Source of the DNA: a virus
Taxonomy: Duplodnaviria > Heunggongvirae > Uroviricota > Caudoviricetes
Reading direction: 5' to 3' (one strand)
Length of the DNA stretch: 11,873 bases
Virus record (IMG/VR): IMGVR_UViG_2695420792_000013
Span: 1-11,873 of that record
A program made the translations under genes and the position numbers. The notes under the pieces were generated by a model. The model searched no databases and was not told where the DNA came from. It worked only from the letters and a program-made list of their open reading frames with translations. Positions 1-11,873 of this stretch are shown here, one piece after another. Position 1 is the stretch's first letter. The number at the start of each line of letters is the position of its first letter.

Positions 1-318
1 ATGAAAAAGATAGCTGCTATATCATTAATTAGTATTTTTATTATGTCTGGTTGTGCTGTGCATAATGATGAGACAAGTATCGGTAAATTTGGTCTTGCAT
101 ATAAAAGTAATATTCAGCGTAAACTCGATAACCAATACTACACCGAAGCCGAAGCTTCTTTAGCCAGGGGTAGAATATCTGGTGCAGAAAATATAGTAAA
201 AAATGATGCAACTCATTTCTGTGTTACTCAGGGCAAAAAAATGCAAATAGTTGAGCTGAAGACAGAAGGTGTAGGATTACATGGTGTCGCTCGTCTGACA
301 TTCAAATGTGGAGAGTGA
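1..318 (+). CDS. Putative lipoprotein, host-side flanking gene
   Basis: 105-aa ORF with an N-terminal hydrophobic signal-like segment ending in a cysteine (IFIMSGC), consistent with a lipobox. Lies outside the prophage, left of the att core. Size and position would fit yegR beside the K-12 P2 remnant, but that is recalled synteny only. Confidence 0.55.
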   Translation: MKKIAAISLISIFIMSGCAVHNDETSIGKFGLAYKSNIQRKLDNQYYTEAEASLARGRISGAENIVKNDATHFCVTQGKKMQIVELKTEGVGLHGVARLTFKCGE

Positions 319-380
319 GAATATTTTTTGGTAAGCGTCAAATATGCGCGTTCTGGCTGTGCGTAGCCGGAACCTGTGGG

Positions 381-413
381 AGCACGATGCCGATAAGTGA
401 AAGGCATCGTGCT
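381..413. repeat. Perfect 11-bp inverted repeat (AGCACGATGCC-N11-GGCATCGTGCT)
   Basis: Seen directly in the sequence. Sits in host-side DNA between the lipoprotein gene and the att core. No U-tract follows on either strand, so it is not a classic intrinsic terminator. Confidence 0.5.
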
Positions 414-477
414 ATGAAGGAGGATTCTATCGATGTGGTCAATGGAAGACGGTTACCAGAGATAGGGCTTATGCATA

Positions 478-504
478 AAAAAATAAGCCCGTGTAAGGGA
501 GATT
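478..504. other. P2-type attachment-site core (attL junction)
   Basis: AAAAAATAAGCCCGTGTAAGGGAGATT matches the 27-bp P2 att core as I recall it. It lies about 80 bp beyond the 3' end of int, as in P2 attP. Confidence 0.5.
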
Positions 505-583
505 TAGGGTGTCACCAGTAGGGGCTTTCAACGGTACAATGCGGGTTTGAGCGGCATAAATTACCACTGAAAGCCCTTAAACG

Positions 584-1597
584 TTACTCTACTGTGGACA
601 CTGTGTGGACACTCTCGGCCTCAGTACCACCTCTTAGCGGATTAAGAGAAATGGCGTCCTGAAGGTACTCTGGCGCAAAATGAGCGTAAACCATAGTTTG
701 CTCAATCCGCGTGTGACCTAGTATCCGTTGTAGCGTGATAATACTTCCTCCATTAATCATGAAATGAGTGGCAAAGCTGTGCCTTAGTGCATGTGTGGCT
801 TGCCCCATTGGCAAATCCGGTTTTATTGCTTTCATTGTTCGTCTGAAGCGAGGGTAATCAGCATCAGGGAATAAAAAACCTCGTTTGTTATCCGCGATCA
901 TTTTGGCAACAGCCTCTGAGATCGGGACGGTGCGTGGTTTGTTTGTTTTCGTTTTAACAAACGTGACGCGGTTATGGATGATATTTTCTGCTTTCAAACG
1001 AGCTGCTTCTCCCCAACGTGCTCCAGTACTCAGGCAAAGAATCGCAATCTTTTTGTTGTCGCCGTCAAGAGCAGCAAGCAGTAAGGCAATTTCTTCCTGC
1101 GTGAGATAGCCTGTGTCTGGTTTTTCCTCCTTAAGCCTTTTTGTCCCTCTGATAGGGTGCTCACCAAAGAATAACTCCGCTTCAATCAGGGCTGTAAACA
1201 TGCCGCTAATACATGTTAAATCACGATTGATACTCGAAGGTTTAATACCCTGACTTCTTCGGGTGGCGCAGTACTGGCTGATAAGCGATTTCGTAATTTG
1301 AAATGCGCATGGGTCATTCGTTATTTTTGTGAAGATTTCAATTTTTCCAAGATTAGATTTCCCATGCTCTTCGTGTTTACCCTTTAAATCCCACCAGATC
1401 TGTGTCAGCTCCGACAGACGTCGCTTGTCTGTTGGTTTTGATAGCCATTCTTTATTGTGGTGGTTGTACAACGTGTATTTCTCGAAAGCGACAGCTTCGC
1501 TTTTCTTATCAAACTTCCTACGGATGCGTTTTCCATTACGTCCAGTAGGGCGGATGTCCACTTCATATCGACCATCATCGAGTTTTTTGATTGCCAT
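584..1597 (-). CDS. int: Tyrosine site-specific integrase, P2 Int-like
   Basis: 337-aa ORF, the same length as P2 Int. Carries a tyrosine-recombinase C-terminal signature (HALRHSFATH ... LGHTRIEQTMVYAH). Sits next to the att core and is co-oriented with the repressor gene. Confidence 0.9.
   Translation of the reverse strand: MAIKKLDDGRYEVDIRPTGRNGKRIRRKFDKKSEAVAFEKYTLYNHHNKEWLSKPTDKRRLSELTQIWWDLKGKHEEHGKSNLGKIEIFTKITNDPCAFQITKSLISQYCATRRSQGIKPSSINRDLTCISGMFTALIEAELFFGEHPIRGTKRLKEEKPDTGYLTQEEIALLLAALDGDNKKIAILCLSTGARWGEAARLKAENIIHNRVTFVKTKTNKPRTVPISEAVAKMIADNKRGFLFPDADYPRFRRTMKAIKPDLPMGQATHALRHSFATHFMINGGSIITLQRILGHTRIEQTMVYAHFAPEYLQDAISLNPLRGGTEAESVHTVSTVE
593..611. promoter_or_regulatory. 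Tandem TGTGGACA direct repeats, candidate Int arm-type binding sites
   Basis: Two exact TGTGGACA copies at 593-600 and 604-611, 11 bp apart, overlapping the 3' end of int next to the att core. Confidence 0.4.
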
Positions 1598-1651
1598 CAG
1601 AAAACCCTCCGAGTGGTGTGTTTTTTTGCGACTACTAATCGCTTTTTTCGT

Positions 1652-1672
1652 GGTGGCTGAAATTTAGCCACC
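1652..1672. repeat. Inverted repeat GGTGGCT-N7-AGCCACC in the C-int intergenic region
   Basis: Seen directly. A 12-bp perfect palindrome TGAATATATTCA follows at 1691-1702. Both lie between C and int and could be an attenuator or a protein-binding site. Confidence 0.35.
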
Positions 1673-1712
1673 AATAGTAGGCACTTGTGATGAATATATT
1701 CACGATGAATTG

Positions 1713-2012
1713 TTAACCAGTCTTTTGACCGGAGTGGGGTGACGTTGTTTCGTTTTGCCCAAAGTGTGCGAGAGCGGGCGCAATTTGCCCGGACTCAGGA
1801 GCGATCTGATTGGTCATGAACCATAAAGTGTATTTGGTGAATTGTGGGGTCTGCAGGATGTTCATCATGACATCTGTTGGAGGTGTTGAACGACCACTTT
1901 CATAGTAACTCAGCGTGCCATACGGAACCCCTGTTAAATCAGCAAGTTGTTGTCTGCTCAAATACTCTGATTTTCGCATTAAGACTATCTTCTCGCTTAT
2001 CGTGTTTGACAT
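1713..2012 (-). CDS. C: Immunity repressor, P2 C-like
   Basis: 99-aa ORF, the length of P2 C. Contains an HTH-like segment (LSRQQLADLTGVPYGTLSYYE). Divergent from cox and upstream of int in the same orientation, which is P2 immunity-region synteny. Confidence 0.75.
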   Translation of the reverse strand: MSNTISEKIVLMRKSEYLSRQQLADLTGVPYGTLSYYESGRSTPPTDVMMNILQTPQFTKYTLWFMTNQIAPESGQIAPALAHFGQNETTSPHSGQKTG

Positions 2013-2126
2013 GGTGTTTAGATCTCAATAGTATTTAGTTTAGATGTAGATTGTTTAGTGCTTGGATGTGGGCACTAAAAGGCATTATAAGACATTAAAC
2101 GCAATTCATGAGGGCTAGAGGACGAC
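2013..2126. promoter_or_regulatory. Divergent promoter/operator region (Pe/Pc-like)
   Basis: Intergenic region between divergent C and cox. Contains repeated TTTAG-containing units (about 2013-2021, 2032-2046, 2052-2060) and an 8-bp inverted repeat TTTAGTGC-N10-GCACTAAA (2054-2079). Exact -10/-35 boxes not assigned. Confidence 0.5.
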
Positions 2127-2402
2127 ATGAGCAAGCAAGTAACACTCATGACTGATGCGATTCCTTATCAGGAGTTCGCAAAACTAATAGGAAAATCGAC
2201 AGGAGCGGTTCGTCGGATGATCGATAAAGGAAAGCTGCCTGTAATTGATATGACCGATCCACAATCAGCTTCAGGTCGTGCAGGTGAATATTGGGTATAC
2301 CTTCCGGCATGGAATAACGGACTAAAACTGGCTTATGAAAGCCGCCCTAAAGAGATTCGTGACGGCTGGTTGATGTGGTTAGGTCTCGGTGAACCACGTT
2401 AA
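2127..2402 (+). CDS. cox: Cox-like excisionase / directionality factor and transcriptional regulator
   Basis: 91-aa ORF, the length of P2 Cox. First gene of the rightward early operon, directly opposite C. Confidence 0.75.
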   Translation: MSKQVTLMTDAIPYQEFAKLIGKSTGAVRRMIDKGKLPVIDMTDPQSASGRAGEYWVYLPAWNNGLKLAYESRPKEIRDGWLMWLGLGEPR

Positions 2403-2412
2403 GGAGAACCGT

Positions 2413-2583
2413 ATGAATGAGCCTCGTTGTATTGCTCAGTTACTGCGTAACGAAAGCCCCAGGGCGATTGACTTCACCATCACCCATGGTAAGGGGCGTA
2501 AGGGAATCATTATCCGCACCAAAAAACAGAGTCCGTTAAAAAAGGCTCTGACCTTTCTGAAAAGCCGGAGGGTATGGAAATGA
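2413..2583 (+). CDS. Small hypothetical protein (P2 orf78 position)
   Basis: Listed ORF is 2389-2583. The start is more likely the ATG at 2413, which follows an AAGGAG Shine-Dalgarno at 2401-2406. Positional equivalent of the small ORF between cox and B. Confidence 0.45.
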   Translation: MNEPRCIAQLLRNESPRAIDFTITHGKGRKGIIIRTKKQSPLKKALTFLKSRRVWK

Positions 2584-3080
2584 CAGTGATGACGCTCAAT
2601 CTCGTTGAAAAACAGCCAGCAGCTATGCGCCGGATAATTGGTAAGCATCTTGCCGTTCCTCGCTGGCAGGATACATGTGATTATTATAATCAGATGATGG
2701 AGCGCGAACGGCTAACAGTTTGCTTTCATGCGCAGTTAAAACAGCGTCACGCAACGATGCGTTTTGAAGAAATGAACGACGTCGAACGTGAACGACTGGT
2801 ATGTGCAATTGATGAATTGCGTGGGGCATTCTCAAAACGTCGTCAGGTCGGTGCAAGTGAGTATGCATATATTAGTTTTTTAACAGTCAGTCAGCGTCGT
2901 ACTTTATTTATGCATGCCGGATTGACTGAAAAAGAATTCAACCAGCCATACTGGCGAATTAATGAAGAGTCATGTTACTGGCGTGATGCTTTATTCCGTG
3001 CATTACGTGAATTATTCAGCCTGTTTGAGTATGCACCGACAATTCTGACATCGGTAAAACCAGAGCAATATCTGCATTAA
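2574..3080 (+). CDS. B: Replication protein B-like
   Basis: 168-aa ORF (P2 B is about 166 aa as I recall) in the expected slot between cox and A. Start could be one of the first three Met codons. Confidence 0.7.
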   Translation: MEMTVMTLNLVEKQPAAMRRIIGKHLAVPRWQDTCDYYNQMMERERLTVCFHAQLKQRHATMRFEEMNDVERERLVCAIDELRGAFSKRRQVGASEYAYISFLTVSQRRTLFMHAGLTEKEFNQPYWRINEESCYWRDALFRALRELFSLFEYAPTILTSVKPEQYLH

Positions 3081-3134
3081 GTAATTAACCAGAGTTTTTA
3101 ACGCACTTAATTGTGCGGGGCTTCTTTTTGCCTG

Positions 3135-3368
3135 GAGAAAGTCATGCATACAGTTTCTGAAAATCAGTGCGGTAAATACGCATTACTGCTGCAACAGGCC
3201 AGAACCGAAGCACAGGCCGACGCAGCGACGCGCTTTTCTTCTCATCTTGACGCCATGATTCGCCACATCACAAAGGCGGAGTTATCCCGCGTGGAGATAG
3301 TCGAGCTGCTCAGTCAGGAGTCGGAAAAATTTCACAACATCGGATTGTCTCGCGGGGAGGTGCTTTGA
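3135..3368 (+). CDS. Hypothetical early protein (P2 orf80 position)
   Basis: Listed ORF starts at 3111. The ATG at 3135 is preceded by GGAGAAAGTC and is the more plausible start. The stop overlaps the next start (ATGA-type coupling). Confidence 0.5.
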
Positions 3369-3670
3369 TGTCCTGTTCTCGTTCAGTTGTTTTACTGAAC
3401 AATGCCTTAAAAATCGCCGTTATGAAAAATGGCGATTTGTCTCTTATTCAACTTGGTCTTGATAAAGAAAAACGCGAAATAACTGAATCTGTTATCGCGA
3501 TTTATCAGAGTGAATTAAACCTCCTGTCTGATGTGGTCAATTTACTTGTTAAACGCGCTGTATTTCACAAGCAAATTTCCTCCGTGGATGAACTGACGAC
3601 ATTAACGACAGAAATCGCCAGCTATTGCGCTGATGAATTTAAAAAACTGAACGACAAAAGGAACTGGTAA
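3365..3670 (+). CDS. Hypothetical early protein (P2 orf81 position)
   Basis: 101-aa ORF, tightly packed with its neighbours in the early operon. Confidence 0.55.
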
Positions 3671-3894
3671 TGCCGGACAACGTAGATTTTATTCAGGAAC
3701 AACAGGCTGAATTACTGGAGCGCCAGATTAACGCGGCAAGGGTAAAACATTGCGGTGCTTCTGCGCTGGTTTGCGAAGAGTGTGACGCGCCAATACCTGC
3801 TGCCCGTCGTGCGGCTTATCCGTCAGCCACGCGTTGTGTTTCCTGTCAGGCAGTCTTTGAAGCAAAAAACAAACATTACCGGAGAACGGCATGA
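3670..3894 (+). CDS. C4-type zinc-finger protein, TraR/DksA family (P2 orf82 position)
   Basis: 74-aa ORF with CxxC-N17-CxxC (CEECDAPIPAARRAAYPSATRCVSCQ), typical of phage TraR-like proteins. Confidence 0.7.
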   Translation: MPDNVDFIQEQQAELLERQINAARVKHCGASALVCEECDAPIPAARRAAYPSATRCVSCQAVFEAKNKHYRRTA

Positions 3895-4166
3895 GTATTC
3901 GTATTGAAATTGGCGAACGTTATGTCGTTACCAGTGACAGCTTTCAGTTTATTCTCCACGAGAAAAAGAGAGCGGAAAGCGGTAAAAACGCCGGTCAGGA
4001 ATGGCTGGCGGTGGTTGGTTATTACCCGAAATTAAGCCAGCTCGTTTCCGGCCTGATGCATCACGATATTCTGACCGGAAGCGCAAAATCTTTTGCCGAT
4101 TTAAACGTGCAGGTTGAGCAACTCAGCAGGCGTTGTTCAGAGGCTTTTGGCTCATATGGACGTTAA
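3891..4166 (+). CDS. Hypothetical early protein (P2 orf83 position)
   Basis: 91-aa ORF with start overlapping the previous stop, directly upstream of A. Confidence 0.5.
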   Translation: MSIRIEIGERYVVTSDSFQFILHEKKRAESGKNAGQEWLAVVGYYPKLSQLVSGLMHHDILTGSAKSFADLNVQVEQLSRRCSEAFGSYGR

Positions 4167-6279
4167 AGCCTCCGGGCGTTTTGTCCCTCCGTCAGCATTT
4201 GCCGCAGACACCGGTAAGACGTTTACCGGTGCTTATGCATGGAACGCGCCACGCGAGGCTGTCGGGCGCGAAAGACCCCTTACACGTGACGAGATGCGTC
4301 AGGTGCAAGGTGTTTTATCCACGATAAATCGCCTGCCTTATTTTTTGCGCTCGCTGTTTACTTCACGCTATGACTACATCCGGCGCAATAAAAGCCCGGT
4401 GCACGGGTTTTATTTCCTCACATCCACTTTTCAGCGTCGTTTATGGCCGCGTATTGAGCGTGTGAATCAGCGCCATGAAATGAACACCGACGCGTCGTTG
4501 CTGTTTTTGGCAGAGCGTGACCACTATGCACGCCTGCCGGGAATGAATGACAAGGAGCTGAAAAAGTTTGCCGCCCGTATCTCATCGCAGCTTTTCATGA
4601 TGTATGAGGAACTCTGCGATGCCTGGGTGGATGCGCATGGCGAAAAAGAATCGCTGTTTACGGATGAGGCGCAGGCTCACCTGTATGGTCATGTTGCTGG
4701 CGCTGCACGTGCTTTCAATATTTCCCCTCTCTACTGGAAAAAATACCGTAAAGGGCAGATGACCACGAGGCAGGCATATTCTGCCATTGCCCGTCTGTTT
4801 AACGATGAGTGGTGGACTCATCAGCTTAAAGGCCAGCGTATGCGTTGGCATGAGGCGTTACTGATTGCTGTCGGGGAGGTAAATAAAGACCGTTCACCTT
4901 ATGCCAGTAAACATGCTATTCGTGATGTGCGTGCGCGCCGCCAGGCAAATCTGGAATTTCTTAAATCGTGTGACCTTGAAAACAGGGAAACCGGCGAACG
5001 CATCGACCTTATCAGTAAGGTGATGGGCAGTATTTCTAATCCAGAAATTCGCCGGATGGAGCTGATGAACACCATCGCCGGAATTGAGCGTTACGCCGCC
5101 GCAGAGGGTGATGTGGGGATGTTTATCACGCTGACCGCGCCGTCAAAGTATCACCCGACACGTCAGGTCGGAAAAGGCGAAAGTAAAACCGTCCAGCTTA
5201 ATCACGGCTGGAACCATGAGGCATTTAATCCAAAGGATGCGCAGCGTTATCTCTGCCGTATCTGGAGCCTGATGCGCACGGCATTCAAGGATAATGATTT
5301 ACAGGCCTACGGTTTGCGTGTCGTTGAGCCACACCACGACGGAACGCCGCACTGGCATATGATGCTTTTTTGTAATCCACGCCAGCGTAACCAGATTATT
5401 GAAATCATGCGTCGCTATGCGCTCAAAGAGGATGGCGACGAAAGAGGAGCCGCGCGAAACCGTTTTCAGGCAAAACACCTTAACCGGGGCGGTGCTGCGG
5501 GGTATATCGCGAAATACATCTCAAAAAACATCGATGGCTATGCACTGGATGGTCAGCTCGATAACGATACCGGCAGACCGCTGAAAGACACTGCTGCGGC
5601 TGTTACCGCATGGGCGTCAACGTGGCGCATCCCACAATTTAAAACGGTTGGTCTGCCGACAATGGGGGCTTACCGTGAACTACGCAAATTGCCTCGCGGC
5701 GTCAGCATTGCTGATGAGTTTGACGAGCGCGTCGAGGCTGCACGCGCCGCCGCAGACAGTGGTGATTTTGCGTTATATATCAGCGCGCAGGGTGGGGCAA
5801 ATGTCCCGCGCGATTGTCAGACTGTCAGGGTCGCCCGTAGTCCGTCGGATGAAGTTAACGAGTACGAGGAAGAAGTCGAGAGAGTGGTCGGCATTTACGC
5901 GCCGCATCTCGGCGCGCGTCATATTCATATCACCAGAACGACGGACTGGCGCATTGTGCCGAAAGTTCCGGTCGTTGAGCCTTTGACTTTAAAAAGCGGC
6001 ATCGCCGCGCCTCGGAGTCCTGTCAATAACTGTGGAAAGCCTGCCAGCAGTGATACTTCGTTACCGGCTCCCACGCCTTCTGAACATGCCGCAGCAGTGC
6101 TTAATCTGGTAGATGACGGTGTTATCGAATGGAGTGACCCGGAGGTTGTGAGGATTCTAATGGTAGTGTTAAAAGGAGGGGAAGCATACAAAATCAACAA
6201 CGAAGACGATTATCACCGCAAAGTGCCGAACAAGTCAGCTCAGTGGCTAAAACAAAGAATAAATAGAGTGGGTAACTAA
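4114..6279 (+). CDS. A: Rolling-circle replication initiation endonuclease, P2 gpA-like
   Basis: 721-aa ORF. HUH motif HWHMML at 5350-5367. Paired catalytic tyrosines in YIAKYISK (Y codons at 5503-5505 and 5515-5517), the phiX174/P2 gpA signature. True start may be the ATG at 4156, which would minimise overlap with the upstream ORF. Confidence 0.9.
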   Translation: MSNSAGVVQRLLAHMDVKASGRFVPPSAFAADTGKTFTGAYAWNAPREAVGRERPLTRDEMRQVQGVLSTINRLPYFLRSLFTSRYDYIRRNKSPVHGFYFLTSTFQRRLWPRIERVNQRHEMNTDASLLFLAERDHYARLPGMNDKELKKFAARISSQLFMMYEELCDAWVDAHGEKESLFTDEAQAHLYGHVAGAARAFNISPLYWKKYRKGQMTTRQAYSAIARLFNDEWWTHQLKGQRMRWHEALLIAVGEVNKDRSPYASKHAIRDVRARRQANLEFLKSCDLENRETGERIDLISKVMGSISNPEIRRMELMNTIAGIERYAAAEGDVGMFITLTAPSKYHPTRQVGKGESKTVQLNHGWNHEAFNPKDAQRYLCRIWSLMRTAFKDNDLQAYGLRVVEPHHDGTPHWHMMLFCNPRQRNQIIEIMRRYALKEDGDERGAARNRFQAKHLNRGGAAGYIAKYISKNIDGYALDGQLDNDTGRPLKDTAAAVTAWASTWRIPQFKTVGLPTMGAYRELRKLPRGVSIADEFDERVEAARAAADSGDFALYISAQGGANVPRDCQTVRVARSPSDEVNEYEEEVERVVGIYAPHLGARHIHITRTTDWRIVPKVPVVEPLTLKSGIAAPRSPVNNCGKPASSDTSLPAPTPSEHAAAVLNLVDDGVIEWSDPEVVRILMVVLKGGEAYKINNEDDYHRKVPNKSAQWLKQRINRVGN

Positions 6280-6443
6280 ACTCGCTTTGTTTTAGTTTGT
6301 GAATATATGAGACTGGACGCTGAAACCTGACGAGTAGGTTTGTGAGAATGATGATCTATTTGCATTGAGATAATATGTTAAGTTATAGGCTTTCTGCGTT
6401 AGTGCACTTCCCCCCCCCAACCGTAGCAGGGGGAGGTAAAGGG

Positions 6444-7298
6444 TTAAGCAAATCTTAATATTTCTTTAGGTATGGGAGTTGCACAAGCTAATCTTCGTCT
6501 TTCTAACATTAAAGGATCCTTAGTAATTTTCAAATTATTATTGACGGATAAATGTGATTTTAAGGATGACAACCAGAGCTTAATGAACTCAAAGACATAT
6601 TTACCCTTAATGGCTCTTTCGTACGGTAATTCATTGAAGAATGAAATCAATGCTTTTACATCCTCTGAGTCTTCATTTACTTCATAATCTATTAACGTAG
6701 CATTATCCTTGATTGAGATATTTTTATACTCAATATTGATAACTGAAGATATTTTATTGTAGAATTTTGTTTTCCCGTTTGCATTATGATTTACAAATAG
6801 AGGTCGGCATAATTCTTTTGCTAACTTTTGAAATAGTTGGAAGTCGGACTCAAAATCTTTTTTGATACGCGCCAATAAATCAGACTGTGTTATATCCATT
6901 TTGAACTCGTCCTTTAAATAGCTTTTTGTAGAGGAAGAGTTAATAATATAGTTTTCAATTGAATAACATGAAAGAGTAACAATGTTATCAGAATTATGCT
7001 CAAATAGGTCAAAGTCATGATCTACAAAAAAGTAGCAATTGCTTAATATTTCTTGATCATTATGTTGAATTGCATGCTCGTATAACTCAATTATCTGTTT
7101 TTTTCCTTTCGCCACAAGGTGGCCTGCATTAGCATACTCTGGATTGTGTTTCATCCATTCATCGTATACAGGGTAATCATCAACACCTTCAAAAACAAAA
7201 ATTTTATCGAAGGATGATGTTTTAAGTAATATCTCTTGCTTTAACGGATTTCTCGAAAAAGCTTCTTTTTTCATAGTATGTAGGAGATTGTTACTCAT
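6444..7298 (-). CDS. TOPRIM-like (DUF4435-like) nuclease, AriB-like effector candidate
   Basis: 284-aa ORF. TOPRIM-style motifs: IFVFEGVDD (Glu codon at 7188-7190) and FFVDHDFD (DxD at about 7014-7022). Start ATG shares one base with the upstream ATPase stop. Strongly AT-rich coding sequence. Confidence 0.7.
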   Translation of the reverse strand: MSNNLLHTMKKEAFSRNPLKQEILLKTSSFDKIFVFEGVDDYPVYDEWMKHNPEYANAGHLVAKGKKQIIELYEHAIQHNDQEILSNCYFFVDHDFDLFEHNSDNIVTLSCYSIENYIINSSSTKSYLKDEFKMDITQSDLLARIKKDFESDFQLFQKLAKELCRPLFVNHNANGKTKFYNKISSVINIEYKNISIKDNATLIDYEVNEDSEDVKALISFFNELPYERAIKGKYVFEFIKLWLSSLKSHLSVNNNLKITKDPLMLERRRLACATPIPKEILRFA

Positions 7299-8764
7299 CA
7301 GACACTACCCTTTCGTACTTTCATAGCAGTTGCATAAGGGTCTAGCTCATTGTCAAATATGAATGGTGAATGCGTTATGGCAATTATTTGCCTAACATTT
7401 TCACCCGCATTCAAATCTGGTAATATCATCCGTTGCCACTCTATCGATAACGAAAGTTCCGGTTCATCTATTAATATTATTTTAGGGGTATTATCATTAA
7501 GATAAATCGTAGCCATTAGCGAAATTACTTGTTTCTCACCTGAAGATAAGTCATTAAGAGAGATGCGATCTCCTGTATATGTATCTTTTACGATAACTTC
7601 TAATCTTTGAGGATCAAATTTTAGAGATTTAGAATCACCTGCTGATGAAAGATATTTATCACAAACAGCAACGAATTTCTCAATTTTTGACTCTTGCTCT
7701 TTTGTTTCTTGTATAACCGAGTTTAATTGAGTTAAAAAATATTTCAAGTAAGTGATGTTTTTTATTTCATCTTTGTTATATAGCAATTTAAGCGAATCAA
7801 TTAAAGATTTCTTTTTTGATTCAGATGCTCTTTTTTCTCGCAAATTTGTACCAGTATCCTCAACTCGATTAAGGAATCTTTCCAAATCCTCTATAGAAGG
7901 TAGTGCATTTTGTTCTTTAGCTATCCGCTCATTGTTACCATATTTAATTAAATCCTCAAGCATTTTGGCACTTAAAGATCTATAGCCAAGGTTTGATGTC
8001 CTTTCAATTTCTAAAGTTAGACCTTTTAAAGCATCTTCGACATCCTTTAACCCATATGAAATGCCATCACGTTGTAGTTTCATCCCTCTTTTTCTACCAA
8101 ACATGCGAGGGTGAAGATTTTCTCTTTCTTCCCTAGGTGTCGTCTCAAAACTTTTTTCTACCCTTCGATATGTTGGTAGAAATATAACGTCTAAATCCCT
8201 AAGCGCTTCAGCAACCACTCTAAAATTATTATTTTTAGAGTAATGCATTTTTAAATTATGCTGTTCCTTATTCTTCATTTTATTAACTATGTTGTCTTTT
8301 AGTTCTCTTAGAAAATGATTTATATAATCCTTTGGGTATTTTACGGTATTATATAGGTCATTGACTAAAGCATCATCATTGAATTCATTTTGCTTCGAGT
8401 CAATTAAAGTCTTCGCAAACTTGGTAATATCACGATCATCCCAAAATGACTCATTAAGAGAAAATCTTTCATTGAGGAATGCTTTTATTTCACCAAAAGG
8501 TATTAAAGATGCTCTTTCATTTTTAATTTCAACCTCCTCATGACCAAGAATCTTTATGAATATTGATTTAAAATCAATTCTCATAAGGTTTGTAAAATCT
8601 TGCTCGAGAAGAAGTCTTATAGCATTAAGTATGGTTGTTTTTCCTGCGCCGTTCTCGGATACGAAAACTGTTGTCTTGCCTTTCATTTTCATAGTTATAT
8701 CTTTATAACCATGAACTCCTGTCATTCTAAAATATTCAATCGGGTAATTATTACGTGTAGTCAT
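7298..8764 (-). CDS. ABC-type ATPase with coiled-coil insertion, AriA-like
   Basis: 488-aa ORF. Walker A ENGAGKTT (codons at about 8633-8650). Signature-like LSSGEKQ. Walker B IILIDEPE (D-E codons at 7463-7468). H-loop ITHSP. A long K/E/L-rich middle segment suggests a coiled coil. AGGAGA Shine-Dalgarno 4 nt upstream of the ATG. AT-rich. Confidence 0.75.
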   Translation of the reverse strand: MTTRNNYPIEYFRMTGVHGYKDITMKMKGKTTVFVSENGAGKTTILNAIRLLLEQDFTNLMRIDFKSIFIKILGHEEVEIKNERASLIPFGEIKAFLNERFSLNESFWDDRDITKFAKTLIDSKQNEFNDDALVNDLYNTVKYPKDYINHFLRELKDNIVNKMKNKEQHNLKMHYSKNNNFRVVAEALRDLDVIFLPTYRRVEKSFETTPREERENLHPRMFGRKRGMKLQRDGISYGLKDVEDALKGLTLEIERTSNLGYRSLSAKMLEDLIKYGNNERIAKEQNALPSIEDLERFLNRVEDTGTNLREKRASESKKKSLIDSLKLLYNKDEIKNITYLKYFLTQLNSVIQETKEQESKIEKFVAVCDKYLSSAGDSKSLKFDPQRLEVIVKDTYTGDRISLNDLSSGEKQVISLMATIYLNDNTPKIILIDEPELSLSIEWQRMILPDLNAGENVRQIIAITHSPFIFDNELDPYATAMKVRKGSV

Positions 8765-9010
8765 TATGTCTCCTTTCGTCTACATTACTAAAATCAGTTA
8801 GTCAATTTTCTTAAAAACTAAAGTAACAGAAGCTTTCGATATATTTGAACAGCTAATTCATACAGCAAAGTCAAACTTAATTCAACTATCCATCAGGCGG
8901 TGCACGATTCGTACAGCGCAACCCACAGTTGATTCAACTCGGATTATAATAATTGCAGATATTTTTTGCGATTTCCAGTGGCTACTAGTCATTTTATTGT
9001 GATCCCTAAA

Positions 9011-9029
9011 CCACCTCCTGGGGAGGTGG
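9011..9029. repeat. Subterminal palindrome of the IS200-like element (left)
   Basis: Perfect 8-bp stem with 3-nt loop, seen directly. Confidence 0.6.
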
Positions 9030-9117
9030 TGATTGATCCTGTAAGGCTATAGCCTGAAGAATGCCCATGTCGGAATATCTCTGCTTACTCACCACAAGTA
9101 AAAGGAGACAAACTGAC

Positions 9118-9552
9118 ATGGGGTTTTACAGAAGTTCATCATATGTATATTGGCGTTGCAAATATCACATAGTCTGGACGGCAAAGTACCGTTTTAGGAT
9201 CCTGAGGGATAAATTGGGCAAGGAGCTGTACAGAACCATCTATATTCTTTGCGGAATAAAAGATTGTGAGGTTCTGGAGTTAAATGTACAGGCAGATCAT
9301 GTGCATCTTGTCGTAATAGTGCCGCCAAAAATCTCAATATCTACTCTGATGGGGCACCTGAAAGGTCGCAGTGCAATCAGACTCTACAATCGATTCCCGC
9401 ATATCAGGAAGAAGTTATGGGGAAACCATTTTTGGTCGTGGGGTTACTTTGTTGATACGGTAGGCGTGAACGAAGAAATTATCAGACGATATGCGAGGTA
9501 TCAGGAAAAGATGGAGCAAACACATGAACAGCAGATGGAGTTGCTAGAGTAG
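9118..9552 (+). CDS. tnpA: IS200/IS605-family Y1 (HUH) transposase TnpA
   Basis: Motifs CKYHIVW, HUH in HVHLVV, and catalytic Tyr context WGYFVDTVG. Listed ORF starts at 9061, but the ATG at 9118 follows an AAGGAGA Shine-Dalgarno and gives a family-typical 144 aa. A GC hairpin at 9572-9589 follows the stop. Confidence 0.8.
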   Translation: MGFYRSSSYVYWRCKYHIVWTAKYRFRILRDKLGKELYRTIYILCGIKDCEVLELNVQADHVHLVVIVPPKISISTLMGHLKGRSAIRLYNRFPHIRKKLWGNHFWSWGYFVDTVGVNEEIIRRYARYQEKMEQTHEQQMELLE

Positions 9553-9600
9553 AAAACGGAATATGACATTCGCCCCCCTTATAGGGGGCATTCTGAAAAG

Positions 9601-9619
9601 CCACCTCCTCAGGAGGTGG
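9601..9619. repeat. Subterminal palindrome of the IS200-like element (right)
   Basis: Perfect 8-bp stem with 3-nt loop, near-identical to the left copy. Confidence 0.6.
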
Positions 9620-9752
9620 TCTTTTACTTCTACTGTGTTTGATGCATGAATTTGCATTCGAGTTTTTCTGAGCGTTGCCTTGTCAGTTGTAGGTCTTGTG
9701 GGGTTGGGGTGGCCTAATGCAACTGCATTATTAGCGCCCTATGAAGCGGGCG

Positions 9753-9771
9753 GGCGAGGCGGGGAAAGCAC
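9753..9771. other. P2-type cos site (19-nt cohesive-end sequence)
   Basis: GGCGAGGCGGGGAAAGCAC matches the P2 cohesive end as I recall it. The flanking sequence resembles the P2 genome termini, and it lies just upstream of the 3' end of portal gene Q, as in P2. Confidence 0.6.
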
Positions 9772-9913
9772 TGCGCGCTGGCGGTGGTGCTGATTTTATT
9801 TTTTCAGCGTCTGAGCGCGTTGTGATGGCGTTTAGATTGTTCGCCGGGGCGTTGGTGTGTATGCGGGCTGTTTTGTGCGGTGGTGAGCGTGTGAGGGCGT
9901 GATGGCGGGGTGT

Positions 9914-9935
9914 AAAAAAGCCGCCCGCAGGCGGC
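9914..9935 (-). terminator. Intrinsic terminator downstream of Q (minus strand)
   Basis: On the minus strand: GCCGCC-TGCG-GGCGGC stem-loop followed by TTTTTT, immediately after the Q stop codon at 9941-9943. Confidence 0.6.
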
Positions 9936-9940
9936 GATGT

Positions 9941-10440
9941 TCAGCCGTTGTCAGTGTCCAGTGAGTAGTTTTTAAAGCGGATGACCTCCTGACCGAGCCA
10001 GCCGTTTATCTCGCGGATCCTGTCCTGTAACGGGATAAGCTCATTGCGGACAAAGACCTTTGCCACTTTCTCAATATCACCCAGCGACCCGACGTTCTCC
10101 GGCTTGCCGCCCATCAACTGAAAGGGGATGCGGTGCGCGTCCAGCAGGTCTGCGGCGCTGGCTTTTTTGATATTAAAAAAATCATCCTTCGTTGCCACTT
10201 CACTGAGCGGGATAATTTTAATGCCGTCGGCTTTCCCTTGTGGGGCATAGAGAAACAGGTTTTTAAAGTTGTTGCGGCCTTTCGACTTCACCATGTTTTC
10301 GCGGAGCATTTCGATATCGTTGCGATCCTGCACGGCATCGGTGACGTACATGATGTATCCGGCATGTGCGCCGTTTTCGTAATACTTGCGGCGGAACAGC
10401 GTGGCCGACTCATTCAGCCAGAGCCAAAGGTCGTATTGGT
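9941..10440 (-). pseudogene. Q: Portal protein Q-like gene, C-terminal fragment only (5'-truncated)
   Basis: Listed ORF 9941-10351 (136 aa). The frame stays open upstream to about 10456 without a plausible start. Position and orientation next to cos match P2 Q, which is about 340 aa, so most of the N-terminus is missing. 5' boundary approximate. Confidence 0.6.
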
Positions 10441-10623
10441 GGCAGACGTCCGAAACTCACCGCGAGTGAGTGGGAGCAGGTCGGACGGTTGCTGGATGCG
10501 GGGGAATCTCGTCAACGCGTGGCGCTGATTTTTGATATTGGCCTGTCCACGCTCTATAAGAAATTCCCCTCATCAGCGACAAAGAATAAATTGTGTCATC
10601 CCTTAGCCAACCGGGACAAATAG
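10414..10623 (+). pseudogene. Serine DNA invertase (Gin/Pin/Hin family), C-terminal HTH fragment
   Basis: KGRIGGRRPKLTASEWEQVGRLLDAGESRQRVALIFDIGLSTLYKKFP resembles the C-terminal DNA-binding domain of Gin/Hin-type invertases. No N-terminal catalytic domain is present. The listed ORF start at 10366 is probably fortuitous. 5' boundary approximate. Confidence 0.65.
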
Positions 10624-10682
10624 CCTGACATCTCCGGCACAACTGAAAATACCACTCACCCATTAACCACGGAGTTAAACGG

Positions 10683-11873
10683 ATGAGTGACTATCATCAC
10701 GGCGTGCAGGTGCTGGAGATTAACGACGGCCCCCGCGTCATTTCCACCGTATCCACTGCCATTGTCGGCATGGTCTGCACGGCCAGCGATGCGGATGCGG
10801 AAACCTTCCCCCTCAATAAACCTGTGCTGATTACCAATGTGCAGAGCGCAATTGCAAAGGCCGGTAAAAAAGGCACGCTGGCGGCATCGTTGCAGGCCAT
10901 CGCTGACCAGTCAAAACCGGTCACCGTTGTCGTGCGCGTGGAAGACGGCACCGGTGATGACGAGGAAACGAAACTCGCGCAGACCGTTTCCAATATCATC
11001 GGCACCACCGACGAAAACGGTCAGTACACCGGACTAAAAGCCCTGCTGGCGGCGGAGTCGGTTACCGGTGTTAAACCGCGTATTCTCGGTGTGCCGGGAC
11101 TGGACACCAAAGAGGTGGCGGTTGCACTGGCATCAGTCTGTCAGAAGCTGCGCGCTTTCGGGTATATCAGCGCATGGGGCTGTAAAACCATTTCCGAGGT
11201 GAAAGCCTACCGCCAGAATTTCAGCCAGCGAGAGCTGATGGTCATCTGGCCGGATTTCCTCGCATGGGATACGGTCGCCAGTACCACCGCCACCGCGTAT
11301 GCCACCGCCCGTGCGCTGGGTCTGCGTGCCAAAATCGACCAGGAGCAGGGCTGGCATAAAACGCTGTCCAACGTCGGGGTAAACGGTGTTACCGGCATCA
11401 GTGCCTCTGTATTCTGGGATTTGCAGGAGTCCGGCACCGATGCTGACCTGTTGAACGAGTCAGGTGTCACAACGCTGATTCGCCGTGACGGTTTCCGCTT
11501 CTGGGGTAACCGTACCTGCTCTGATGACCCGCTGTTCCTCTTTGAAAACTACACCCGCACCGCGCAGGTGCTGGCCGACACGATGGCTGAGGCGCACATG
11601 TGGGCGGTGGACAAGCCCATCACTGCAACGCTGATTCGCGACATCGTTGACGGCATCAATGCCAAATTCCGTGAGCTGAAAACAAACGGCTATATCGTGG
11701 ATGCGACCTGCTGGTTCAGCGAAGAATCCAACGATGCGGAAACCCTCAAGGCCGGAAAACTGTATATCGACTACGACTATACACCGGTGCCTCCTCTCGA
11801 AAACCTGACCCTGCGCCAGCGTATTACCGATAAATACCTGGCAAATCTGGTCACCTCGGTTAACAGCAATTAA
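10683..11873 (+). CDS. FI: Contractile tail sheath protein, P2 FI-like
   Basis: 396-aa ORF, the length of P2 FI. The N-terminus MSDYHHGVQVLEI matches my recollection of P2 FI. GGAG Shine-Dalgarno 8 nt upstream. The TAA stop coincides with the window end. Confidence 0.9.
   Translation: MSDYHHGVQVLEINDGPRVISTVSTAIVGMVCTASDADAETFPLNKPVLITNVQSAIAKAGKKGTLAASLQAIADQSKPVTVVVRVEDGTGDDEETKLAQTVSNIIGTTDENGQYTGLKALLAAESVTGVKPRILGVPGLDTKEVAVALASVCQKLRAFGYISAWGCKTISEVKAYRQNFSQRELMVIWPDFLAWDTVASTTATAYATARALGLRAKIDQEQGWHKTLSNVGVNGVTGISASVFWDLQESGTDADLLNESGVTTLIRRDGFRFWGNRTCSDDPLFLFENYTRTAQVLADTMAEAHMWAVDKPITATLIRDIVDGINAKFRELKTNGYIVDATCWFSEESNDAETLKAGKLYIDYDYTPVPPLENLTLRQRITDKYLANLVTSVNSN

What the first reader, a model, noticed from the sequence alone, without database searches (positions are those of the whole stretch)
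6150..8995. AT-rich cargo island replacing tin/old, with one boundary apparently inside the 3' end of gene A
From 4114 to about 6150 the A gene looks like the rest of the P2 backbone in composition. Its last roughly 40 codons (about 6150-6279), the convergent intergenic region and both ATPase/nuclease genes are markedly AT-rich, with heavy use of AAA/AAT/ATT/TTT codons. This suggests the cargo was brought in by recombination that also replaced the extreme 3' end of A. The A ORF is 721 aa, whereas I recall P2 A as about 761 aa; the shorter length is consistent with a replaced tail but could also be a start-site difference.
Basis: partly seen in the sequence, partly recalled or inferred. Interest (0 to 1): 0.55.

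Follow-up and report, generated by a model that had tools for sequence, protein, structure and literature searches.

The report
PARIS defence island truncating P2 gene A
A P2-like prophage carries the known PARIS anti-phage gene pair where phage P2 has tin/old, and the swap removed the conserved last 95 residues of the phage's replication protein; this is a well-described defence hotspot whose edge lies unusually deep in gene A.

Summary
GC falls from 0.53 (gene A body) to 0.39 (A's last 41 codons), 0.44 (intergenic) and 0.31-0.32 (the two cargo genes). Homology to P2, STYP1, pro147 and about 1600 E. coli genomes stops exactly at 6153/6154, inside A.

A starts at ATG 4156, the P2 start, not TTG 4114. 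It is 707 aa: 666 P2-type residues plus 41 unrelated ones, in place of the conserved 95-residue tail.

The cargo is a PARIS system: ariB 6444-7298(-), ariA 7298-8764(-). It sits in the published gpA-gpQ, cos-adjacent defence hotspot. The variable region runs to 9716, not 8995, and contains an IS200/IS605 insertion (about 8992-9631).

The PARIS module proper is 6444 to about 8790, judged from seven genomic contexts. The 267-nt filler (6154-6420) that supplies A's new tail is found only in this E. coli prophage lineage. A Klebsiella counterpart has a canonical A-tail remnant directly next to the same hairpin and ariB, so the tail loss is separable from PARIS itself.

Other A-tail losses exist (E. 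coli F8, a Citrobacter-like lineage, partly pro483). Whether the 707-aa A still works is unresolved. Known kind, low-to-moderate interest.

The parts
4156..6279 (+). Gene A (replication endonuclease gpA), 707 aa, chimeric. Codons 1-666 are P2-type; codons 667-707 are unrelated read-through.
   Evidence: The start aligns with the P2 A start. Pfam Phage_GPA matches over its full length, residues 133-462, E 2.4e-123. The tyrosine pair YIAKY sits at 450-454. PGAP marks the gene as a pseudogene 'missing C-terminus'.
6014..6015 (+). Position equivalent to the P2 ori nick site, retained 139 nt upstream of the junction.
   Evidence: The P2 annotation 'nick site at ori' at 29892 maps to window 6014. 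The surrounding sequence GCGCCTCGGAGTCCTGTCAATAAC is identical in the window, P2, ENT4 and L020.
6153..6154 (.). Left junction of the variable region: ...GGAGGTTGTGAGG | ATTCTAATGG...
   Evidence: The junction is identical in 13 carrier loci.
6154..6420 (+). Filler of unknown origin, found only in this prophage lineage. Positions 6154-6279 supply A's 41 new codons and stop; 6280-6420 are non-coding.
   Evidence: It occurs in only 3 of 5426 complete E. coli genomes. There is no match in the phage or plasmid collections and no protein homologue of the tail. No frame other than A's stays open. There is no Rfam match and no unusual RNA folding, z = +0.2 and -0.4.
6413..6437 (.). G/C hairpin (C9...GGGGGAGG) just beyond the ariB stop, probably a transcription stop or stability element. 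Homology to the Klebsiella island starts at 6421.
   Evidence: The poly-C length varies among carriers.
6444..7298 (-). ariB, the DUF4435/TOPRIM nuclease effector of PARIS (284 aa, 33.3 kDa).
   Evidence: Pfam DUF4435 scores 53.6 bits against a cut-off of 27. PADLOC AriB gives E 4.5e-18. The acidic residues E37, D41, D93, D95, E115 and E131 are invariant in 20 homologues.
7298..8764 (-). ariA, the ABC-type (AAA_15/AAA_21) ATPase sensor of PARIS (488 aa, 56.7 kDa). Its stop overlaps the ariB start (ATGA).
   Evidence: Pfam AAA_15 scores 64.1 bits and AAA_21 62 bits. PADLOC AriA gives E 2.8e-31. The best solved-structure hits are AriA entries 8ux9 and 8v45, E 9e-12. Motifs seen: Walker A GAGKT (K42), signature LSSGEKQ at 408, Walker B IILIDE at 429.
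8765..8998 (-). Region upstream of ariA (presumed promoter), shared only with the Klebsiella island.
   Evidence: The consensus scan found no promoter here above chance.
8992..9631 (+). IS200/IS605-family insertion sequence; tnpA is 9118-9552(+); ends are uncertain by about 8 nt.
   Evidence: Pfam Y1_Tnp gives E 2.3e-37. NCBIfam transpos_IS200 scores 139.9 bits. Other copies at 93-98% identity occur in many E. coli replicons. The empty site in Klebsiella L019 joins 8998 to 9622. Matching subterminal hairpins lie at 9010-9029 and 9601-9620.
9622..9716 (.). Right-hand part of the variable region, next to cos. It is homologous to the Klebsiella prophage but not to P2, STYP1 or pro147.
9753..9771 (+). 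P2-type cohesive end (cos) GGCGAGGCGGGGAAAGCAC. Backbone homology resumes at 9717-9724.
   Evidence: It aligns to the P2 cosR feature.

Best explanation
Window 6154-9716 is the cos-adjacent gpA-gpQ defence hotspot of a P2-like (Peduovirus) prophage. In place of P2's orf91-tin-old it holds a two-gene PARIS abortive-infection system and a later IS200/IS605 insertion.

How PARIS works (from the B185 system, not tested on this homologue): AriA, an ABC ATPase, forms a scaffold that holds the AriB TOPRIM nuclease inactive. When AriA detects a phage protein such as the anti-restriction protein Ocr, in an ATP-dependent step, AriB is released. It dimerises, cuts host lysine tRNA and stops translation, which blocks the competing phage.

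How the locus arose (inferred): the compact ariAB module (6444 to about 8790) moves between mobile elements. In this E. coli lineage the left junction was made by illegitimate, non-homologous joining at 6153/6154. That removed the last 96 codons of A and fused codon 666 in frame to 41 codons of a 267-nt filler of unknown origin.

What A keeps and loses: it keeps the catalytic core and the internal ori, and loses a C-terminal tail that is conserved across P2-type phages.

What happened next: the whole block, junction included, spread by homologous recombination onto P2-like backbones that differ by about 2.4% and carry different integrase/immunity modules.

My leaning, at about 55%, is that the 707-aa A is impaired and that these prophages persist mainly as host-retained defence islands. 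The window's own copy is certainly defective because of a 14.3-kb deletion of late genes.
For: Identity of the cargo:
- meet the published detection rule for PARIS, quoted: AAA_15 at least 32 bits, AAA_21 at least 27, DUF4435 at least 27, in adjacent genes.
- the top solved-structure hits for the ATPase are AriA entries.
- the motifs are present.
- The mechanism is taken from PMC11464382 and PMC9122126.

Hotspot: PMC9122126 and PMC13586616 describe it. The flanks are conserved and the content differs in every relative fetched.

Junction:
- It is exact at 6153.
- The canonical tail is absent from all six frames of the window.
- The tail is conserved in ENT4 (61% identity, E 9e-42) and in Yersinia YenM31.17 (45% identity, E 1e-23).
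- 83 of 86 phage records with a tail hit cover at least 80% of it.
- Alleles 99.4% identical up to 6153 continue into full-length A proteins of 757 and 770 aa.

Module limits.

Separability from PARIS: the Klebsiella locus L019.

Spread:
- The island differs by about 0.2% among carriers while their backbones differ by about 2.4%.
- It sits at different att sites with different int modules.
- Junction and tail are identical in 13 carriers.

Decay:
- The window has a deletion from the portal gene into the invertase gene.
- Further independent late-gene deletions occur in L011, L015 and L016.
- IS1 interrupts ariB in GZ2408C.
- PGAP flags A as a pseudogene.
Against: - No donor of the filler was found, so the joining mechanism is inferred only from the lack of homology.
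- AriB has no detectable sequence match to solved AriB structures, and my AlphaFold model was too poor to use (pLDDT 50). Its assignment rests on the Pfam and PADLOC profiles and on motif spacing.
- No promoter above chance was found upstream of ariA.

Against the 'A is impaired' leaning:
- The same junction occurs in two otherwise complete prophages with different integration modules, in unrelated strains.
- All 13 A ORFs are intact.
- Some family members end soon after the ori (Klebsiella phi5.4, 683 aa).
- pro483, deposited as a phage genome, lacks the last 38 or so tail residues.
- From my own recollection, P2 gene A acts only in cis, so a dead A could not be rescued by a helper phage to spread.
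Confidence: 0.85

Rival explanations
1. The 707-aa A is fully functional. On this reading the conserved 95-residue tail is dispensable, and the hotspot's true left limit is set only by the need to keep the ori (nick at 6014) and a few dozen codons after it. The PARIS-bearing phage would then be a viable temperate phage.
For: - Complete prophages with the identical junction sit at two att sites with different int/C/cox modules, in unrelated strains.
- The ORF is intact in 13 of 13 carriers.
- Tail losses recur at nearby positions: L020 with 673 aa in at least 12 contigs and an intact-looking prophage, F8 with 707 aa, and pro483 with 723 aa.
- Distant gpA proteins share no alignable tail.
- The catalytic core, Y450/Y454 and the ori are all retained.
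Against: - The tail is conserved at 45-61% identity across genera.
- It is present at 80% or more coverage in 83 of the 86 sequenced phage records that have any tail match; the only whole phage genome seen with a partial tail is pro483.
- No isolated phage carries this filler.
- The lineage is rare, 3 of 5426 complete genomes.
- It shows several independent late-gene deletions and IS insertions.
Confidence: 0.42
2. PARIS and the new A tail arrived together in one recombination event. On this reading the filler is the flank of the donor, and the Klebsiella arrangement is a later repair by recombination with a phage that had a full-length A.
For: - The filler and PARIS are always found together in E. 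coli.
- The filler's GC (0.39-0.44) lies between backbone and cargo.
- In other P2-like prophages the A tail does change together with the cargo: O157:H7 3-5-1 and 89-3156 have full-length but divergent tails.
- A second PARIS-bearing lineage, L020, also lacks the tail.
Against: - In seven contexts the shared module stops at the ariB stop codon.
- None of those contexts shares the filler.
- The closest PARIS relative (Klebsiella, 87% identity), which has the same right-hand junction, has a canonical A-tail remnant directly next to the hairpin.
- The L020 junction is at a different position and has a different sequence.
Confidence: 0.35
3. The short A is an artefact: a sequencing or assembly error, a frameshift, or a wrongly chosen start codon.
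For: PGAP adds the word 'frameshifted' to its pseudogene note.
Against: The same junction and the same uninterrupted 707-aa ORF occur in 13 independent assemblies, including three complete genomes, and the cargo's AriB protein that accompanies it is listed in 177 blocks of the assembly collection. No remnant of the canonical tail exists in any frame of the window.
Confidence: 0.01

Closest known systems
PARIS (AriA/AriB) of E. coli B185, carried on a P4-like satellite (Rousset 2022, PMC9122126; Burman 2024, PMC11464382)
   Same: It has the same two-gene architecture: an ABC ATPase of about 55 kDa followed by a DUF4435/TOPRIM protein of about 35 kDa, here 56.7 and 33.3 kDa. The reading frames overlap. 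It has Walker A, Walker B and signature motifs and a TOPRIM acidic pattern with the same spacing (E-x3-D ... D-x-[D/E]). It sits in a cos-adjacent hotspot of a P2/P4-type element.
   Different: It is a distant homologue. AriA matches solved AriA only over the C-terminal half of the nucleotide-binding domain (E 9e-12). AriB has no direct sequence hit to solved chains. It is carried by the helper-type phage (P2-like) rather than by a P4 satellite. Its trigger and tRNA target are untested, and Burman et al. report that the trigger-sensing pores are poorly conserved among clades.
P2 tin-old region, also called the gpA-gpQ hotspot of P2-like coliphages (Rousset 2022; Odegrip 2006 as cited there; PMC13586616)
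   Same: The position is the same, between A and cos/Q. The cargo is AT-rich and transcribed convergently with A. It has a defence function, and P2 Old is itself an ATPase-TOPRIM protein of the same broad OLD-like group. The replaced segment is of similar size, about 3.5 kb.
   Different: In P2 and most relatives the variable region begins within the last 100 nt or so of A. Here it begins 288 nt upstream of the canonical stop and removes the conserved tail. It also holds an IS element, which PMC13586616 describes as almost non-existent in these phages.
Other gpA tail losses in P2-like prophages: E. coli F8 (SIR2 + ATPase cargo), the Citrobacter-like L020 (PARIS), and phage pro483 (DUF4238)
   Same: In each, A keeps the catalytic core and ori but ends early: 707, 673 and 723 aa respectively. 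Each sits directly next to a hotspot cargo. The F8 A gene is also flagged as a pseudogene by PGAP.
   Different: The break points and the replacement sequences differ, so these are independent events and not the same allele.

Membership tests
PARIS (AriA-AriB) | An ABC ATPase matching AAA_15 (at least 32 bits) or AAA_21 (at least 27 bits); this is the published MacSyFinder rule. | tested here: met
   AAA_15 scores 64.1 bits and AAA_21 62.0 bits. The rule is quoted.
PARIS (AriA-AriB) | An adjacent DUF4435 protein scoring at least 27 bits. | tested here: met
   DUF4435 scores 53.6 bits. PADLOC AriB gives E 4.5e-18. The genes overlap by ATGA.
PARIS (AriA-AriB) | ATPase catalytic motifs: the Walker A lysine and Walker B glutamate (K39 and E393 in B185). 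| tested here: met
   GAGKT with K42, IILIDE with E434, and signature LSSGEKQ are present.
PARIS (AriA-AriB) | TOPRIM metal-binding acidic residues (E26, D30, D88, E90, E122 in B185). | tested here: inconclusive
   E37, D41, D93, D95 and E115/E131 are invariant in 20 homologues and have matching spacing. The equivalence is by spacing only. There was no direct alignment to B185 AriB, and the AlphaFold model was unusable.
PARIS (AriA-AriB) | An AriA6:AriB3 complex, trigger-dependent release of AriB, cleavage of lysine tRNA, and phage protection. | not testable with these tools
   This needs biochemistry and infection assays.
P2 gpA-gpQ defence hotspot | Located between A and cos/portal Q, with conserved flanks and variable content among relatives. 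| tested here: met
gpA rolling-circle replication endonuclease (P2 type) | A full Phage_GPA domain with the tyrosine pair at 450/454. | tested here: met
   Pfam matches residues 133-462 over model positions 1-321 of 321. YIAKY is at 450-454. The role of these tyrosines is from my own recollection of Odegrip and Haggard-Ljungquist 2001.
gpA rolling-circle replication endonuclease (P2 type) | An ori/nick sequence inside the gene. | tested here: met
   The sequence is identical around the annotated P2 nick site.
gpA rolling-circle replication endonuclease (P2 type) | The conserved C-terminal tail of about 95 residues (...NRQQR...PSARLT..ER...IR.DL...RWELEALARGA...). | tested here: not met
   It is absent in all frames and replaced by 41 unrelated residues.
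IS200/IS605 insertion sequence | A Y1 (HUH) TnpA, subterminal hairpins, no terminal inverted repeats, multiple copies, and an empty site. | tested here: met

The most novel reading that the evidence does not exclude
The conserved C-terminal domain of P2-type gpA may be expendable. If so, cargo swaps at the cos-proximal hotspot could erode gene A down to about 30-45 codons past the internal ori and still leave a phage that replicates and spreads. The ori would then be the real left boundary of the hotspot. Annotation pipelines and hotspot surveys that require an intact 'replication endonuclease' protein would systematically miss this class of defence-carrying P2 phages.
Probability: 0.35. Interest if true: 0.45.

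Novelty: new member of a known kind. Interest (0 to 1): 0.3.

Why it matters
It adds one more concrete example of how defence cassettes are exchanged at the P2 hotspot. The ariAB module travels with boundaries tight to its ORFs. The block then spreads among P2-like backbones by flanking homology.

It also shows that such swaps can damage a core replication gene. That bears on whether defence-carrying prophages stay mobile or become fixed host defence islands. PMC13586616 raises this question, noting that the P2 replication gene is pseudogenised more often than other core genes.

A practical point follows. Because PGAP calls this A a pseudogene, surveys that anchor the hotspot on an annotated gpA protein may miss such loci.

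None of this changes current understanding of PARIS or of P2.

Tried and rejected
1. Origin of the 267-nt filler and 41-aa tail. blastn (distant mode) against phages and plasmids found nothing. In E. coli genomes only the 3 carriers matched. A protein search with the tail found no candidate. Origin remains unknown.
2. The filler as a structured RNA. There was no Rfam hit at gathering threshold anywhere in the window. Folding z-scores were +0.2 and -0.4. Rejected.
3. Flanking direct or inverted repeats that might mark site-specific insertion of the island. Only the IS hairpins and chance-level short repeats were found. Rejected.
4. A hidden or frameshifted canonical A tail. tblastn of P2 A residues 641-761 matched only up to window 6174. 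Rejected.
5. AlphaFold model of AriB from a 20-sequence alignment. Mean pLDDT was 49.7, so it was not used for a fold search.
6. An AriB profile searched against solved-structure sequences gave only chance hits.
7. The search for related loci with the AriB alignment in the species-representative genomes returned nothing. Contexts were obtained through the look-up of encoding contigs instead.
8. The promoter scan upstream of ariA was not above the shuffled expectation.
9. A literature search for evidence that pro483 is viable, or for work on the gpA C-terminus, found nothing usable in the held library.


Full report
**What the window is.** The window is the left part of a P2-like (Peduovirus) prophage next to yegR.
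- Its genes run int (584-1597, -), C, cox, B, orf80-83, A, a cargo region, cos, and a fragment of the portal gene.
- It is 99.7% identical to the prophage of E. coli B7A over positions 1-10421.
- After 10421 the portal gene is joined to the 3' part of the invertase gene just upstream of tail sheath. This skips 14.3 kb of late genes that B7A has. The copy in the window is therefore defective regardless of gene A.

**Checking the observation.**
- GC is 0.532 in the A body (4156-6153), 0.389 in A's last 41 codons plus stop (6154-6279), and 0.439 in the intergenic stretch.
- GC is 0.309 in the 284-aa gene and 0.324 in the 488-aa gene. The island is 0.33 against 0.50 for the backbone.
- No 126-nt window inside the A body is as low as the tail (minimum 0.444), and Fisher p is 0.002. 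The tail is intermediate, not as AT-rich as the cargo.
- blastn homology to P2, STYP1 and pro147 ends at exactly 6153 and resumes at 9717-9724.
- Among 1607 E. coli records that match 6000-6300, only the 3 carriers cover the whole query; in every other row listed the match ends at 6153.
- The P2 A start maps to ATG 4156, so A is 707 aa, not 721. It shares 666 residues with P2 A (761 aa) and then has 41 unrelated residues instead of 95.

**What the cargo is.**
- The 488-aa protein matches Pfam AAA_15 (64 bits) and AAA_21 (62 bits) and PADLOC AriA (E 2.8e-31).
- The 284-aa protein matches Pfam DUF4435 (53.6 bits) and PADLOC AriB (E 4.5e-18).
- These scores satisfy the published detection rule for PARIS.
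- The best solved-structure hits for the ATPase are AriA entries 8ux9 and 8v45 (E 9e-12).
- Walker A (K42), the ABC signature and Walker B (E434) are present, and the two reading frames overlap by ATGA.
- In AriB, E37, D41, D93, D95, E115 and E131 are invariant across 20 homologues. Their spacing matches the TOPRIM residues E26, D30, D88 and E90 of the B185 protein.
- AriB has no direct sequence match to solved chains, and my AlphaFold model was too poor to use. This last point therefore rests on spacing only.
- Protein sizes (56.7 and 33.3 kDa) fit the published 55 and 35 kDa.
- The mechanism I attribute to the system is taken from the B185 system and is untested here. An AriA hexamer sequesters AriB. 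ATP-dependent sensing of a phage protein such as Ocr releases AriB. AriB dimers then cleave lysine tRNA and arrest translation (PMC11464382; PMC9122126).

**Where the cargo sits.**
- The stretch between gpA and the portal gene gpQ, next to cos, is the published P2 defence hotspot. P2 itself carries old and tin there.
- Every relative I fetched has different cargo between the same flanks:
  - tin/old, a Fic-type gene, and a retron-type reverse transcriptase;
  - DUF4238, SIR2 + ATPase, and an ABC-three-component system;
  - an OLD-like nuclease.

**Anatomy of the variable region, from comparison with seven contexts.**
- The mobile ariAB module is 6444 to about 8790. It runs from the ariB stop codon to 15-30 nt upstream of the ariA start.
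- This same module, at 67-87% identity, occurs in the following places:
  - the same hotspot of a Klebsiella prophage remnant and of a Citrobacter-like P2 relative;
  - another mobile element;
  - chromosomal islets of Enterobacter and Serratia;
  - the int-ogr region of a Yersinia 186-like prophage.
- Only the Klebsiella locus shares more: the hairpin from 6421, the ariA upstream region 8765-8998, and the cos-proximal 9622 onwards. It joins 8998 directly to 9622.
- That join defines an IS200/IS605 insertion in the window: tnpA 9118-9552, matching subterminal hairpins, and other copies at 93-98% identity across E. coli.
- The remaining piece, 6154-6420, is a filler found only in this E. coli lineage. 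It has no match in phages or plasmids, and only three of 5426 complete E. coli genomes carry it. The 41-aa tail has no protein relative. The filler has no Rfam family and no unusual fold.

**What happened to gene A.**
- The canonical tail is a conserved feature of P2-type gpA. P2, STYP1 and pro147 stay collinear to within 5-11 codons of the stop.
- ENT4 keeps the tail at 61% identity and Yersinia YenM31.17 at 45% identity, E 1e-23.
- 83 of 86 phage records with a tail match cover at least 80% of it.
- Alleles 99.4% identical to the window up to 6153, including the local KPASSD variant, continue into full-length proteins of 757 and 770 aa in other E. coli.
- No trace of the tail exists in any frame of the window.
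- So a normal A lost its last 96 codons and now reads into foreign DNA until the first stop. The chance of 41 open codons at that composition is about 0.05, which is unremarkable.
- The catalytic domain, the YIAKY tyrosine pair and the ori nick sequence (6014) are retained.
- PGAP annotates the gene as a pseudogene lacking its C-terminus in B7A, GN4143 and GZ2408C. Its extra label 'frameshifted' is not borne out, because the ORF is continuous in 13 of 13 carriers.

**Is the tail loss part of the arrival of PARIS?**
- In the Klebsiella locus a stop-containing remnant of the canonical tail (...RQQRSREPLKPQEIVPSGRLTKSE*...WELEVLARGATVIY...) runs right up to the same hairpin and ariB.
- PARIS can therefore sit at the ordinary boundary, and the filler marks a separable or alternative event.
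- On the other hand, the Citrobacter-like PARIS lineage also has a short A (673 aa, break near window-equivalent 6110-6125), while its relative ENT4 has 762 aa.
- Tail changes travel with cargo elsewhere:
  - O157:H7 3-5-1 and 89-3156 have full-length but divergent tails.
  - E. coli F8 has a different 707-aa truncation next to SIR2 + ATPase.
  - pro483 lacks the last 38 or so residues.
- Across 1684 E. coli records, the end of homology in the rows sampled down the ranking mostly falls within the last 100 nt or so of A, with a minority of deeper breaks.
For this locus it is a non-homologous truncation, not an allele swap, and single-event acquisition is unproven.

**Spread and status.**
- Among carriers the island differs by about 0.2% while the adjoining backbone differs by about 2.4%.
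- The identical junction and tail occur on at least three A-body alleles.
- They occur in complete prophages with different int/C/cox modules at different att sites: yegR|trhP in GZ2408C and pflA|pflB in GN4143. The B7A copy is flanked by yegR and pflB.
- That distribution argues for horizontal spread. Combined with my recollection that P2 A acts only in cis, it gives some support to a working A.
- Against this stand the tail's conservation and its presence, at 80% or more coverage, in nearly all sequenced phage records that match it. Also against it are the rarity of the lineage, the several independent late-gene deletions (the window, L011, L015, L016), and the IS200 and IS1 insertions.
- I lean slightly (about 55:45) toward an impaired A and host-retained defence islands. 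This is an inference and can be tested directly.

**Comparison with what is known, and verdict.**
- This is a PARIS system (a known family; sequence-level criteria met, biochemistry untestable here) in the known P2 gpA-gpQ hotspot, with an IS200-family insertion.
- The only unusual feature is how deep the left boundary lies in gene A, and similar cases exist.
- Novelty: new member of a known kind. Interest: low to moderate.

Noticed in passing
window 10421-10422 (context 9941-10700): The portal gene Q is cut at 10421 and joined to the 3' part of a DNA-invertase ('recombinase family') gene just upstream of tail sheath FI (10683 onwards). About 14.3 kb of head, lysis, baseplate and tail-fibre genes present in E. 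coli B7A are missing, so this prophage copy is defective.
   Followed up: partly
window 8992-9631: An IS200/IS605-family element (tnpA 9118-9552, near-identical hairpins at 9010-9029 and 9601-9620) lies between the ariA upstream region and cos. It is present in all 13 E. coli carriers and absent from the Klebsiella counterpart. IS elements are reported to be almost non-existent in P2-like phages (PMC13586616).
   Followed up: partly
window 6039-6049: A short divergent patch in gene A (KLTGGD changed to KPASSD) begins 25 nt downstream of the ori nick site. Positions 6039-6153 differ from P2, STYP1 and pro147 by about 10%, against 1-3% upstream. The same allele occurs in 14 other E. coli genomes with full-length A. 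This suggests a recombination boundary just 3' of the ori.
   Followed up: partly
window 6413-6421: The poly-C tract (C9) in the hairpin beyond ariB varies in length among carriers; it is 2 nt shorter in B7A and 1 nt shorter in GN4143 and GZ2408C. This could be slippage or homopolymer sequencing error.
   Followed up: no
L004/L042 (B7A), L044 (GN4143), L045 (GZ2408C): The same island and junction sit in prophages with different integrase/repressor/cox modules at two att sites (yegR|trhP and pflA|pflB). The B7A copy is flanked by yegR on one side and pflB on the other, which implies a chromosomal inversion by recombination between two resident P2-like prophages.
   Followed up: partly
L006/L045 (E. 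coli GZ2408C): An IS1 element is inserted at the ariA-ariB boundary and truncates the 5' end of ariB, so PARIS is probably inactivated in that strain.
   Followed up: no
L019 (Klebsiella pneumoniae, GCA_054801955.1): This is a prophage remnant next to yegS. The integrase region is fused directly to a stop-containing remnant of the canonical A tail, followed by the hairpin, ariB-ariA, and terminase and capsid genes; no portal gene product is listed on that side. The early region has been deleted but the defence genes are kept.
   Followed up: partly
L039 (E. coli F8), L043 (phage pro483), L020 (Citrobacter-like metagenome contig): These are independent cases of gpA ending early (707, 723 and 673 aa), next to SIR2 + ATPase, DUF4238 and PARIS cargo respectively. 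Each has a different break point and a different replacement sequence.
   Followed up: partly
literature method (PMC9122126, Methods): The published survey of the P2 hotspot located gpA through proteins annotated 'replication endonuclease'. Loci such as this one, where PGAP marks A as a pseudogene with no protein product, may have been skipped.
   Followed up: no
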